A program made the position numbers. A stretch of DNA of 64,000 nt from Ophelia neglecta (lineage: Eukaryota): positions 52,266,001-52,330,000 of the forward strand of contig OZ260665.1 in assembly GCA_965285935.1 (NCBI GenBank), given 5' to 3'. The first letter of the stretch is position 1. Each line of letters begins with the position of its first letter. This document shows, piece after piece, positions 54,001-57,000 of this stretch.

Positions 54001-57000
54001 GCTGTAAGTTGCAAAAGCGGCCAGAACAGAGAAGCTTAGGAGGGCAAGTGGGGACAAGAGCTGGCGGGAATGAAAAAGGACATGTGGCCACAGAGCTCCT
54101 TGAGCCAGAGCACTGAGCACCGGAGAGGAGCTGCGTGATTAAAGCCCTGAAAGGATATCACCCTAGGCCAGAAGCGACACAGGAGAGCTGTCCTGGCCAG
54201 CTGGGCTGGCCTCAGTCAGCTAGCCATTCCATACCATAAACTGGCGTGTGAAGCTTCCTAGAAATCAGGCAACCTTCCCAGAGGAATGCATGGTCTTCAA
54301 TTGCCAAGCTCTGATCAACATTAGTATGGAGGCCAAATTGCAGCCCATTACTGGCGATTGAGCCTTCTTTAAGACATCATGACTTACTGACAGTGAAATC
54401 TCTAGCCGGTTGAGAGAGTGACATCCAGGATTTAAAGCTGCATTTCTTCTCAGCCTGAATGTTTGAAGCTTTATTGGCAGGCACCAAACAACTTCTTGTT
54501 ACTAATTCATGATATTGGAGGATGTTTGACACATATCAACACCATTGTCCATGCATGTGAAATTGTGTATTGTCCATGGTTATTGATAGTGAAGAATTGA
54601 TAGCTGCAACTTAAAATATGGGTATATATTCGCAGAACACTGTCCAACTGAGAACAGTTGTAATGCATCTTGAAGGTCGGCATAAAGACCAAAATCGCCT
54701 ACATGTATTGTTCGAGAGGTGGAATGTGGCTTGCTGAGTCTGGCTGATTATTGGCTTTGTTTGCTCCCATGACTGTATAGTATACATCCTGACTGTCATT
54801 GTGACTGCCTAAATGGCTGATGGAAGATCCAAGCCAAGAAATTGCTTATCTATTAAACATTTTGGTGTTCCCAGAGGACTTGTGTTTCAAAATAGCTTTT
54901 GGAGTGGGTGAGTTTTGGAACTATTCATTGAGCGATGGCTGAGCTGGAAGTTGTACAGGATTATTGGAAACAACAACAGAGACTGTCAGTTTAAACGTTA
55001 CATGCATTGTATGTGTCAGAGGATACTCTGTAATATCAATTCAAACCTGTTGGGTTTTTTTATCTGACTCTATTTACATTGATATTCATAAAATTATGTA
55101 CACATATCTGGTTTTACCATTTTAATTCTATTTGTTGTTTTCAAGAGGAATGAAAGTTGCTAATTAGAACTTTGTATGGAACTGAGAGTATTCTGTATGC
55201 CTATTGGAAAGAGATATTGATCAGTATTCACCTGAGGATTTATTCTATCTGATGACATGGTGTTAGATCTGTGAGCTGCGATGGCTGTTCTGCGATTATC
55301 AGTACTAAAGTTAATGTAAATGTCAAAATCCAGCGTGGTAATATCTCAGGATTGAAAGAAACGGAAAGATACTATCTCAGCTCAGATAGAAAAACACGGC
55401 AAGAGACTATTTCAGAGAGAAAACTTGAGTTAGTCTGGCTCAGGACTTTCCCCTGCTTTCCTCTCATCTACATGTGTGAATATTTTGAGGCAGTGATTGC
55501 CTCAAGCCTATATTACTGTTGATACTGCCCATGTTGTGGGAGAAGGTGCCTCTGTATTCAGGCATGGATCATTTTGAGTGTGAGTACCAGAGTCTGGCTC
55601 TTGTCAGCCGAGACCCGGAATGGCCACTGCCCATTTTCGAGGAGTACCCGACCACAGACATGGACACGTCCTCGGTGTCGGACACGGCCTCCTCCTCGGA
55701 TGCCATGTACACCATAGCGCGGGAGCATGCTGGCCTCCAGCACCCTGCCACTGCCCTGGAGGCCGTCCTGGAGATCACTCAGCAGGTGGGTGCCCAGCAT
55801 CTCTATACAGTTACAGCTGCATACACAGACTGATGTCTTACTGTATAATGAATACATAACCCAGTAATAAAAACCACAAACAGCTAGCTGCACATTAAAG
55901 CCACAAATACTGGTATGCCCTCAATAATTAAAGACATTTCCAGCTACCATGATAATTTACTACCTTTTTCCGAGTAATTATTCTGCTTAAAGGCAGAACA
56001 ACAGGAAATATTAATCGAAATATGTGTCAATAAGTAGATGTATTTCAGCCCCAAAACACGGCATCATTCTGAATATTAGTGTATGCTTCATTCTATACTT
56101 AGACTGGGTAAACACCGTTAAACAGCACCGATCATCAAGAGGCACTGTAAGTCATTGGCAGACACATGAATCTCCTAGAGCTGTTAGAGCTTTTATCTGC
56201 CCCCCTGCGGAACTTTTTAATGGCGCATATATAGCTGAGGAACTAGTCCTAGGGATGGCAAAATGTCAGTGTACAATGGATATTTACAGATGTACCTGAG
56301 GCTAGCTGTTAATCATTCAGCTAAATTTTAAGATTTAGCATGCTCCCTTTAGAACCTAGTCCTGTTTTGTCAAACCTTGGATAACACTAAGTCCTAGACA
56401 GGGAAGTCATTAATTGTGACTGTCTACCATATTTTCGTAGTCTGTGAGTCTTTGTTGATTTGATATGTGCATGAAATTGCCTGACACAAACTCGTCACTG
56501 CTGTATGCCAGTATGGACATTTAGTCCAGCCACTATAAAACTTTGACAAATGAAGTGTGCTGCAGATTTCAAAATCAATACAAGAGGCATTTTTATAGCT
56601 ACAGTTTGCAGTCATACATGAAAAGAATTAAGTGCAGAGTATTGTAGTTCCAGGCAGTTACAGCCAGCTCTTCAATCCCTAGAATGCAAAATTTCAGATT
56701 TGCTAGTAGACTGAACTCTGTATGTCCATTTCTCTGGAAGAGAATTTCTTTCACATTTCTATTTTCTTTTTTCCACTTCCTGTGATGTATTTTACATAAA
56801 CTGAACTTGAGGTGGCCCAACAAAGTGGAAAATGTCATTGTTGTTTTGCTTCTCTGGCATAGTACGTGACATTGTTTTGCTATACATCATTTACCAGGTG
56901 CAAAGACACAATTATAGGACTGATTGATTTGATAAATCTATTTCTCATCTAAACGGCAATTTTCCTATTAATTTTTCCATTAGCTGGTTCCCAATGGTCT

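What the first reader, a model, noticed from the sequence alone, without database searches (positions are those of the whole stretch)
55531..55791. Coding-like exon in the intron that splits the PTB domain: possible PTB-less, PDZ-bearing Mint isoform
Seen: a 224-nt GC/CpG-rich block with coding-type codon bias, an acceptor (55561), a well-placed ATG (55564) and a phase-0 donor (55785), about 9 kb after the VFESEE exon. Direct splicing from the VFESEE exon is out of frame and meets a TAG. The phase-0 donor fits the next expected Mint exon (AQ.IAQSIGQAF, not found in this window). Inference, three models: (a) an alternative N-terminus giving a short protein of 74-85 new residues plus the last PTB helix and PDZ1-2; (b) a phase 1-in/0-out exon that replaces the whole PTB block 37572-46410, which has the same phases; (c) an exon of a nested gene. 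I do not recognise the peptide from any Mint protein.
Basis: partly seen in the sequence, partly recalled or inferred. Interest (0 to 1): 0.7.

Follow-up and report, generated by a model that had tools for sequence, protein, structure and literature searches.

The report
Unannotated coding exon inside Mint intron
A 224-base stretch deep in an intron of an invertebrate Mint/X11 adaptor gene looks like a real, conserved protein-coding exon of no known family, but without RNA data one cannot say whether it makes a short Mint protein lacking its PTB domain or belongs to a separate nested gene.

Summary
At 55562-55785 (+) lies cag|GC ATG...CAG CAG|gtgggt: a 224-nt block with a 74-codon open frame. 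It is the GC-richest 224-nt window of the 64 kb.

It looks coding in that frame only:
- GC1/2/3 is 0.62/0.45/0.74.
- A codon model trained on the window's own Mint exons scores it 0.63 bit/codon. None of 2,302 open non-exonic 74-codon windows reach that, and its other five frames score at most 0.29.

A scan of 1.84 billion protein representatives found one true relative, P0002, an unnamed 96-aa ENA ORF. Identity is 62 of 74 inside the block, 5 of 11 just upstream and 2 of 11 just downstream (Fisher p = 8e-6). Constraint therefore stops at the predicted splice sites.

The peptide has no Pfam, PDB or Atlas relative, and I found no repeat or second copy. It is acidic and Ser/Thr-rich, and the structure model has low confidence.

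Which transcript uses the exon could not be tested. I favour an alternative Mint 5' coding exon (0.4) over a nested gene (0.25) or a swap for the PTB block (0.12). Interest is moderate to low.

The parts
55562..55785 (+). Candidate coding exon, 224 nt, phase 1 in and phase 0 out. It encodes the 74-aa peptide P0001 from ATG 55564.
   Evidence: Sequence read. Top GC window of the 64 kb. GC1/2/3 0.62/0.45/0.74. Codon-model score 0.633 bit/codon, reached by 0 of 2,302 control windows. 62 of 74 residues identical to P0002.
55543..55561 (+). Acceptor region: pyrimidine-rich run tgcctctgtattc, then AG at 55560-55561. Weak alternative phase-0 acceptors give exon starts at 55543 and 55546.
   Evidence: Pyrimidines at -20..-3: 10 of 18 for the 55562 start, against 10 to 12 of 18 for the Mint exons of the window. 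The last 13 bases before the AG are 10 pyrimidines (read).
55564..55566 (+). ATG with G at -3 and G at +4. The Met is conserved in P0002.
55531..55533 (+). Upstream in-frame ATG in a weaker context (c at -3, T at +4). It is also present in P0002 and would give 85 residues if the exon were unspliced at its 5' side.
55786..55791 (+). Donor gtgggt after CAG, phase 0. Read as V-G, it is the only conserved part of the downstream flank.
   Evidence: 2 of 11 downstream residues identical, both from the donor.
46249..46410 (+). Mint PTB exon EIMMDH...VFESEE, phase 0 to 0.
   Evidence: Pfam PID profile positions 72-117 of 140, E = 5e-8. APBA2/X11 PDB chains at E = 5e-13.
45949..46035 (+). Mint PTB exon APEGESQPSTEVDLFVSVEKIMILNTDLQ, 87 nt, phase 0 to 0.
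37572..37723 (+). First Mint PTB exon (..[27 protein letters not shown]), 152 nt, phase 1 in and 0 out.
   Evidence: Pfam PID positions 1-36, E = 3e-8.
31663..32394 (+). Large N-terminal Mint exon, 732 nt, ending GGA G|gtagag. Its phase-1 donor fits the phase-1 acceptors at 33765, 37572 and 55562.
33765..33874 (+). Further coding-like exon (DFDTDEETDELLDKQYASNEKVDIPELSRPPVNRSAQ), 110 nt, phase 1 in and 0 out. It does not fit in frame before 37572.
   Evidence: Codon-model score 0.582 although not in the training set. No bridging exon of at least 31 nt found.

Best explanation
The block 55562-55785 (+) is a genuine coding exon under purifying selection, and it appears restricted to a narrow lineage. 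It lies in the intron of at least 17.6 kb that follows the VFESEE exon of a Mint/X11/APBA orthologue. It encodes 74 acidic, Ser/Thr-rich residues that are probably largely disordered, with two short low-confidence helices predicted in its C-terminal third. The peptide belongs to no known family.

Most likely use (inferred, not shown): it is an alternative 5' coding exon of the Mint gene.
1. A transcript starts inside this long intron, either at a non-coding exon that splices into the 55561 acceptor or just upstream of the block.
2. Translation starts at ATG 55564.
3. The phase-0 donor at 55785 joins the next constitutive Mint exon, which is also entered in phase 0.

The product would carry this new N-terminal module, the orphaned last helix of the PTB domain and the two PDZ domains. 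It would be a Mint without a working PTB domain, and presumably without the NPxY/APP binding that domain provides, while keeping its PDZ-dependent contacts and localisation.

Shown: the exon-like anatomy, the frame-specific codon bias, the conservation with sharp boundaries, and the phase compatibility. Inferred: that the exon is expressed, where its transcript starts, and what the donor joins.

The confidence of 0.4 is for this specific use. That the block is a real coding exon of some transcript I put at about 0.75 to 0.8.
For: Anatomy and context
- Acceptor, ATG, 74 open codons and CAG|gtgggt donor.
- The acceptor and donor contexts resemble those of the window's Mint exons.

Coding signal specific to one frame
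- GC1 > GC2 with GC3 = 0.74.
- Periodicity chi2 = 13.8, p = 0.001.
- A codon model trained on 376 codons of this window's Mint exons gives 0.633 bit/codon in the ATG frame. The other two sense frames give 0.11 and 0.04, and the antisense frames at most 0.29. Of 2,302 open control windows, none reach it (maximum 0.483). The training exons score 0.21 to 0.62.
- So the block uses the host gene's codon dialect.
- A simple filter (40 open codons, GC3 >= 0.65, GC1 > GC2) passes five + strand loci. Two are confirmed Mint exons, one is the coding-like exon at 33765, and one is the block.

Conservation
- The one true relative among 1.84 billion representatives is P0002 (E = 6e-33, 84% identity).
- The alignment is ungapped. 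Identity is 62 of 74 in the exon, 5 of 11 upstream and 2 of 11 downstream (Fisher p = 7.7e-6).
- The two conserved downstream residues are the donor itself.

Not a repeat
- No flanking or internal repeats and no second copy in the window.
- The P0002 cluster has one member on one contig.
- No Pfam domain.

For a Mint 5' exon in particular
- The Met at 55564 is conserved and in a good context.
- Both the 55785 donor and the 46410 donor are phase 0, so both fit the same downstream exon.
- No further coding-like + strand block follows in the remaining 8.2 kb.
- The peptide has pI 4.05, 14 acidic against 2 basic residues and 15 Ser/Thr, and mean pLDDT 57. Mint N-termini are described as long, acidic, disordered and poorly conserved carriers of short motifs (PMC10820826, passages; PMC11405698, abstract).
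- An engineered PDZ-only LIN-10 fragment still localises to Golgi puncta and rescues lin-2 mutants (PMC8108513, passages), so such a product could be active.
Against: - There are no transcript data of any kind.
- The next Mint exon and the PDZ exons are outside the window, so the joined reading cannot even be inspected.
- A phase-0 donor fits by chance one time in three.
- A strong acceptor two bases before the ATG is not what a true first exon needs, and it requires an unseen upstream exon.
- Keeping only the last helix of a PTB fold is structurally odd.
- No annotated protein of any length contains the peptide. That is weak evidence, because the window's own Mint N-terminal exon also found nothing; close relatives therefore seem to be unannotated.
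- Only one other genome shows the block, and only its protein translation was available. dN/dS and synteny are untested, and the flank comparison rests on 22 residues.
- The codon model partly rewards GC content. The frame contrast controls for this, but the control windows are mostly AT-rich.
Confidence: 0.4

Rival explanations
1. The block is an exon, probably the first coding exon, of a separate same-strand gene nested in the Mint intron. Its remaining exons would lie beyond the window, or be too short or unbiased to be seen.
For: The peptide resembles no Mint protein or any other family. An ATG directly after an acceptor is typical of a first coding exon preceded by a 5' UTR exon. GC3 of 0.74 is higher than in the Mint exons, which have 0.53 to 0.63.
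Against: No second coding-like + strand block lies in the 8.2 kb downstream. The codon-model score matches the host gene's exons. An intron-containing same-strand nested gene would be exposed to the host's splicing, and alternative promoters in long introns of synaptic genes are, from general knowledge, the commoner arrangement. No homologue of such a gene was found in any annotated proteome.
Confidence: 0.25
2. The block is an internal alternative exon used in place of the whole PTB block. The phase-1 donor at 32394 splices to 55562, skipping 37572-46410. The result is a full-length N-terminus, 75 new residues, the last PTB helix and the PDZ domains.
For: The 32394 donor is phase 1 and 55562 is a phase-1 acceptor of normal quality. 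The skipped unit (401 nt) and the block (224 nt) both leave remainder 2 on division by 3. The junction codon would be G+GC, read directly. This model explains why the exon has an acceptor.
Against: It requires coordinated skipping of at least three constitutive exons over 23 kb. The phase match has a one-in-three chance. The conserved, well-placed ATG is not needed in this model. There are no transcript data.
Confidence: 0.12
3. The block is a cassette exon included after VFESEE. Through the strong acceptor it would be a poison exon, giving TAG after 51 codons and either mRNA decay or a truncated Mint lacking the PDZ domains. Through the weak phase-0 acceptors (exon starts at 55543 or 55546) it would be an in-frame insert of 80 to 81 residues before the last PTB helix.
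For: The 46410 donor is the nearest upstream donor. Phase-0 entry at 55562 meets TAG. Exon starts at 55543 and 55546 are in frame with the conserved reading.
Against: A poison exon needs no codon bias or protein-level conservation in a frame it never uses, yet the signal is specific to the ATG frame. The phase-0 acceptors are preceded by purine-rich sequence (tgtgggag, gggagaag). The 11 residues they would add are poorly conserved (5 of 11).
Confidence: 0.06
4. The block is not a spliced exon. It would be a conserved GC-rich non-coding element, or a stand-alone unspliced small ORF of 85 to 100 residues as the gene caller behind P0002 read it, and the splice signals would be coincidental.
For: In a 62% GC block open frames are cheap: three of six frames are largely open. 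P0002 is itself an ORF read straight through the donor. Conservation was seen in only one other genome.
Against: The period-3 composition and codon preference are frame-specific. Conservation collapses exactly at the AG and just after the GT, and the two read-through tails are unrelated (VGAQHLYTVTA against VGLKQNRDMYI). A real C-terminus would not be expected to diverge like that.
Confidence: 0.15

Closest known systems
Mint1 826, the human Mint1 splice form lacking exon 6 (11 residues, aa 495-505, inside the PTB domain); PMC3667844, passages read
   Same: Alternative splicing within the PTB-coding part of a Mint gene that changes what the adaptor binds: Mint1 826 gains Rab6 binding.
   Different: That is an 11-residue in-frame cassette which leaves the PTB fold intact. 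Here a 74-codon exon of unrelated sequence would start or re-route the protein after nearly all of the PTB domain. Usage here is unproven.
Engineered PDZ-only fragment of C. elegans LIN-10 (aa 790-982); PMC8108513, passages read
   Same: A Mint-family protein without a PTB domain but with PDZ1-2. It still localises to Golgi puncta, and it rescues lin-2 but not lin-10 mutants. This shows what a PTB-less product could and could not do.
   Different: It is a laboratory construct, not a natural isoform, and it has no novel N-terminal peptide.
Disordered acidic N-terminal regions of Mint1/Mint2 carrying short motifs (Munc18-binding acidic helix, CASK-interacting domain, YxxPhi); PMC10820826, passages read
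   Same: Acidic, Ser/Thr-rich, low-confidence fold and poor conservation across the family. The block has pI 4.05, pLDDT 57 and short predicted helices. It contains YQSL, which fits the YxxPhi pattern by eye only.
   Different: No sequence similarity to any Mint N-terminus was detected. No motif in the block was tested for function.
Short isoforms of synaptic or adhesion genes made from promoters inside long introns, such as ADGRB1/BAI1 intron 17 (PMC11711277, search listing and abstract start only) and beta-neurexins (recalled)
   Same: The proposed mechanism: an internal start in a long intron, a short unique N-terminal exon and shared downstream exons.
   Different: Those cases rest on transcript and chromatin data. 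Here no start site or transcript has been shown.

Membership tests
Mint/X11/APBA (host gene) | PTB/PID domain of the X11 type | tested here: met
   Exon 37572-37723 matches Pfam PID positions 1-36 (E = 2.6e-8) and exon 46249-46410 matches positions 72-117 of 140 (E = 5.2e-8). The best PDB relatives are APBA2, X11 and APBA1 chains, E = 5e-13 to 9e-11.
Mint/X11/APBA (host gene) | Two C-terminal PDZ domains after the PTB domain | not testable with these tools
   The window ends inside the intron after VFESEE. The motif search found no downstream Mint exon.
Mint/X11/APBA (the block as part of a Mint protein) | Sequence similarity of the block's peptide to any Mint protein | tested here: not met
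   Hits at E <= 0.001 among 1.84 billion representatives: P0002, an unnamed 96-aa ORF with no Mint sequence, and P0003, a repeat protein taken as spurious. No longer protein holds the peptide. Pfam found nothing.
Mint/X11/APBA (the block as part of a Mint protein) | Splicing of the block to Mint exons in a transcript | not testable with these tools
   No transcript collection or eukaryotic genome DNA collection was open. Only phase compatibility was shown.
Transposable element or processed pseudogene | Multiple copies, terminal repeats, a mobile-element protein domain, or a parent gene elsewhere | tested here: not met
   No repeats of at least 20 nt flank the block within 53000-58000 other than two chance-level pairs. 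No second copy in the window. The P0002 cluster has one member on one contig. No Pfam family. No parent protein found. No repeat library such as Repbase or Dfam was available.
Poison (stop-carrying) cassette exon | Inclusion between constitutive exons introduces a premature stop | tested here: inconclusive
   Entry from the phase-0 donor at 46410 gives TAG after 51 codons. The coding signal lies in another frame, and usage is unknown.
CpG-island promoter | CpG observed/expected of at least 0.6 over at least 200 nt (criteria recalled) | tested here: not met
   CpG observed/expected is 0.55 over 224 nt, close to the Mint exons of the window at 0.39 to 0.48.

The most novel reading that the evidence does not exclude
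A narrow invertebrate lineage has acquired a new coding exon deep in the Mint gene. It produces a natural Mint isoform without a working PTB domain: a new acidic N-terminal module fused to the PDZ tandem, made either from an internal start or by swapping out the PTB exons. This isoform would uncouple PDZ-dependent partners and Golgi localisation from APP/NPxY binding, and it could compete with full-length Mint. It would be a natural counterpart of the engineered LIN-10 PDZ-only fragment.
Probability: 0.45. Interest if true: 0.5.

Novelty: new member of a known kind. Interest (0 to 1): 0.33.

Why it matters
Mint/X11 adaptors are defined by a conserved PTB plus PDZ-PDZ core (PMC11405698, abstract). 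The natural variation known to me inside that core is small, for example the 11-residue Mint1 826 cassette (PMC3667844). My four literature searches listed no natural PTB-less Mint isoform. The phrase 'lacking the PTB domain' occurred in none of the 10 papers listed. These searches cover open-access text only.

If the exon is used as proposed, it would show that the PDZ tandem can be deployed on its own in vivo. It would also give a natural handle on PDZ-only functions, which so far have been seen with constructs (PMC8108513). Finally, it would be a datable example of a young exon re-wiring an ancient synaptic adaptor.

If it belongs to a nested orphan gene instead, it is an ordinary annotation gap.

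Tried and rejected
Searches that found no relative of the peptide
- Pfam on the 74-aa peptide and on the 114-aa stop-to-stop reading: nothing.
- PDB by sequence: only a chance hit at E = 0.19 to a designed helical pore.
- ESM Atlas by features: best score 0.83 with 74 to 78 shared features, below the lead threshold.
- P0003, a 1,822-aa repeat protein at E = 5.8e-5, was rejected as spurious. It is 26% identical over 38 residues, the score is summed over 13 repeat copies, and only an E-[DE]-Y-P-T-T-[DE] stretch is shared.
- The search for homologous proteins among longer proteins found nothing for the block (127 candidates).
- It also found nothing for the window's N-terminal Mint exon (833 candidates). 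So neither the taxon nor a close annotated Mint could be obtained.
The record's origin stays unknown and I did not pursue it.

Structure and RNA
- The AlphaFold2 model of P0001 with P0002 has pLDDT 57 and pTM 0.17. That is too poor for a fold search, so none was run.
- Rfam found no family anywhere in the window.

Other readings of the region
- Minus-strand reading rejected. The only minus frame open across the whole block has GC1/2/3 of 0.60/0.45/0.56. The 69-codon minus ORF has GC2 > GC1. Antisense codon scores are at most 0.29. No AG or GT lies at the conservation limits on that strand (read).
- The other GC-rich spots in the intron are tandem repeats, not exons.
- A search for an exon bridging 33874 to 37572 (phase 0 to 1, 31 to 400 nt) gave 73 candidates, none convincing.

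Not done
Each exon was handled on its own.
- Complex prediction was not used, because no partner sequence is in hand.
No DNA of a related animal could therefore be fetched.
- Supplementary files of the papers were not seen. Figure S1 of PMC10820826 (an alignment of Mint N-termini) might bear on the comparison of N-terminal motifs.
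Full report
**Setting**

The window has no N. It carries part of a Mint/X11/APBA orthologue on the + strand. Reading each exon on its own gives this map:

| Exon | Length | Phase in/out | Content |
|---|---|---|---|
| 31663-32394 | 732 nt | 1 in, 1 out (GGA G\|gtagag) | Large N-terminal exon |
| 37572-37723 | 152 nt | 1 in, 0 out | ..[27 protein letters not shown] |
| 45949-46035 | 87 nt | 0 to 0 | APEGESQPSTEVDLFVSVEKIMILNTDLQ |
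| 46249-46410 | 162 nt | 0 to 0 | EIMMDH..VFESEE |

- Pfam assigns the first and last of the three PTB exons to the PID profile, at positions 1-36 and 72-117 of 140.
- The closest solved structures are APBA2, X11 and APBA1 (E = 5e-13 to 9e-11).
- The alignment to those mammalian chains has an 8-residue gap and several substitutions, so I do not take the contig for human.
- About 23 profile positions, the last PTB helix, are still missing after VFESEE. A motif search found no exon for them in the remaining 17.6 kb.
- I could not determine the taxon.

**The observation**

- AG at 55560-55561 after a pyrimidine-rich run, with the exon starting at 55562 (GC).
- ATG at 55564, with G at -3 and +4.
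- 74 open codons to CAG CAG at 55785, then the donor gtgggt.
- An in-frame ATG at 55531, behind a stop at 55486-55488.
- Entry from the phase-0 donor at 46410 reads a different frame and meets TAG after 51 codons.
- The PTB exons total 401 nt and the block is 224 nt. Both leave remainder 2 on division by 3, and both run from phase 1 to phase 0.

**Is it more than chance?**

An open frame alone is not. Three of six frames are largely open in this GC-rich block, and the window has 222 stop-free stretches of at least 60 codons. Four other lines of evidence are stronger.

1. Base composition. It is the GC-richest 224-nt window of the 64 kb (62.5%) and has the most CpGs (12). CpG observed/expected is 0.55, exon-like rather than island-like. 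The other GC-rich places in this intron are tandem repeats at 47708-48263 and 58203-59244.
2. Periodicity. GC by codon position is 0.62/0.45/0.74 in the ATG frame. The chi2 is 13.8 (p = 0.001). 105 of 21,260 windows reach it. They belong to about six loci, two of which are the tandem repeats and one the N-terminal Mint exon.
3. Codon model. I trained it on 376 codons of the window's own Mint exons against the window's non-exonic trinucleotides.
   - The block scores 0.633 bit/codon in the ATG frame.
   - The other sense frames score 0.11 and 0.04, and the antisense frames at most 0.29.
   - None of 2,302 open 74-codon control windows reach it (maximum 0.483).
   - The training exons themselves score 0.21 to 0.62.
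   - The frame contrast removes the GC confound.
4. Simple filter. Requiring 40 open codons, GC3 >= 0.65 and GC1 > GC2 passes five loci on the + strand:
   - 32166 and 37604, confirmed Mint exons;
   - 33752, a further exon-like block;
   - 55525, the block;
   - 11853, of unknown nature.

   Seven loci pass on the - strand, four of them antisense to + strand hits.

**Relatives**

- phmmer against 1.84 billion cluster representatives found two proteins at E <= 0.001.
- P0003 is a 1,822-aa repeat protein. Its score is summed over 13 copies of a 26%-identical stretch, and I reject it.
- P0002 is a 96-aa unnamed ORF from an ENA contig of 76.9 kb. It has one member on one contig, E = 6e-33 and 84% identity.
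- P0002 is plainly the same exon read straight through by an ORF caller in a related genome.
- The alignment is ungapped. Identity is 62 of 74 within 55564-55785, 5 of 11 in the codons before it and 2 of 11 after it (Fisher p = 7.7e-6).
- The two conserved downstream residues are V-G, which is the donor GTGGGT itself.
- Constraint therefore begins at the acceptor and ATG and ends at the donor, as expected of a spliced coding exon.
- Limits: only 22 flank residues, only one other genome, and no DNA, so dN/dS and synteny could not be computed.
- No longer protein contains the peptide. This is weak evidence, because the window's own N-terminal Mint exon also retrieved nothing. Close relatives therefore seem not to be annotated.

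**What the peptide is like**

- It has no Pfam family, no PDB relative and no Atlas lead.
- It has pI 4.05, 14 Asp/Glu against 2 Lys/Arg, and 15 Ser/Thr, including the run DTSSVSDTASSSD.
- AlphaFold2 gives mean pLDDT 57, with two tentative helices at residues 45-56 and 61-72.
- This matches the character, though not the sequence, of Mint N-terminal regions. Those are described as long, acidic, disordered, poorly conserved carriers of short binding motifs (PMC10820826, passages).

**Not a mobile element**

- No flanking repeats.
- No second copy in the window.
- A single-member cluster in the protein collection.
- No mobile-element domain.
- No repeat library was available.

**Which transcript?**

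This is the part that cannot be settled here.

- (a) Alternative 5' coding exon of Mint, translation from ATG 55564, donor 55785 joined to the next Mint exon.
  - For: the conserved Met in good context; the same phase as the 46410 donor; no other coding-like + strand block in the 8.2 kb that follow; host-like codon usage.
  - For: internal promoters in long introns of synaptic genes are common, from general knowledge.
  - Against: a true first exon needs no acceptor, so an unseen upstream non-coding exon must be assumed.
  - My estimate is 0.4.
- (c) Exon of a nested same-strand gene. It is favoured by the complete lack of similarity to Mint and by the higher GC3. My estimate is 0.25.
- (b) Swap for the PTB block from the phase-1 donor at 32394. 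It is frame-correct and explains the acceptor, but it needs three constitutive exons to be skipped together. My estimate is 0.12.
- (d) Cassette after VFESEE. Through 55562 it would be a poison exon, which does not explain a coding signal in another frame. Through the weak phase-0 acceptors (exon starts at 55543 or 55546) it would be an in-frame insert of 80 to 81 residues, but those sites are purine-rich and their 11 extra residues are poorly conserved. My estimate is 0.06.
- (e) Not a spliced exon. My estimate is 0.15.

**Comparison with what is known**

- The nearest documented case is Mint1 826. It skips an 11-residue PTB exon and thereby gains Rab6 binding (PMC3667844, passages).
- The nearest functional analogue of the proposed product is the engineered LIN-10 PDZ-only fragment. 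It localises to Golgi puncta and rescues lin-2 but not lin-10 mutants (PMC8108513, passages).
- My four literature searches listed no natural PTB-less Mint isoform. They cover open-access text only, and I saw no supplements.

**Verdict**

The block is very probably a real, constrained coding exon, at about 0.75 to 0.8 summed over models a to d. The specific Mint-isoform reading is plausible but untested. It is a useful annotation lead of moderate to low general interest. Transcript junction reads would settle it at once.

Noticed in passing
window 33765-33874 (+): A second unlisted coding-like exon (cag|AC TTT GAC ... GCC CAG|gtagtc; DFDTDEETDELLDKQYASNEKVDIPELSRPPVNRSAQ). Its codon-model score is 0.582 although it was not in the training set. 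It is 110 nt, phase 1 in and 0 out. It fits the 32394 donor but cannot be followed in frame by the phase-1 acceptor at 37572. No bridging exon of at least 31 nt was found; a micro-exon or an alternative use remains possible.
   Followed up: partly
window 37723|45949 (+): The two PTB exons join as ..GRIK|APEG.. This is the same junction as in the human Mint1 826 form, which lacks the 11-residue exon 6 (the exon 5/7 primer text in PMC3667844). I did not look for a 33-nt exon in the 8.2-kb intron between them.
   Followed up: no
window 47708-48263 and 58203-59244: Two large tandem-repeat arrays lie in the same intron, with periods of 18/36/102 nt and 35 nt (about 30 copies). They create long open frames on both strands (for example 286 aa of Ser/Gly-rich reading at 47580-48440, minus strand) and strong 3-base periodicity, which could be mistaken for coding sequence.
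   Followed up: partly
window 20698-21425 (-): Overlapping long open frames made of a repeated unit (..LLTDISSQRLLDVTAT..), probably another tandem array. Seen only in the ORF list.
   Followed up: no
window about 11853 (+), 2899 and 28555: Further spots with coding-like composition or 3-base periodicity and of unknown nature. 11853 passes the GC3 filter. 2899 and 28555 are periodicity peaks. The ORF 2667-2987 (-) has no Pfam match.
   Followed up: no
P0003 (unnamed 1,822-aa protein): A protein of more than 20 near-identical 74-residue repeats shares the short stretch E-[DE]-Y-P-T-T-[DE] with the block. Its E-value of 5.8e-5 arises from summing 13 weak repeat matches at 26% identity, and I take it as chance.
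   Followed up: partly
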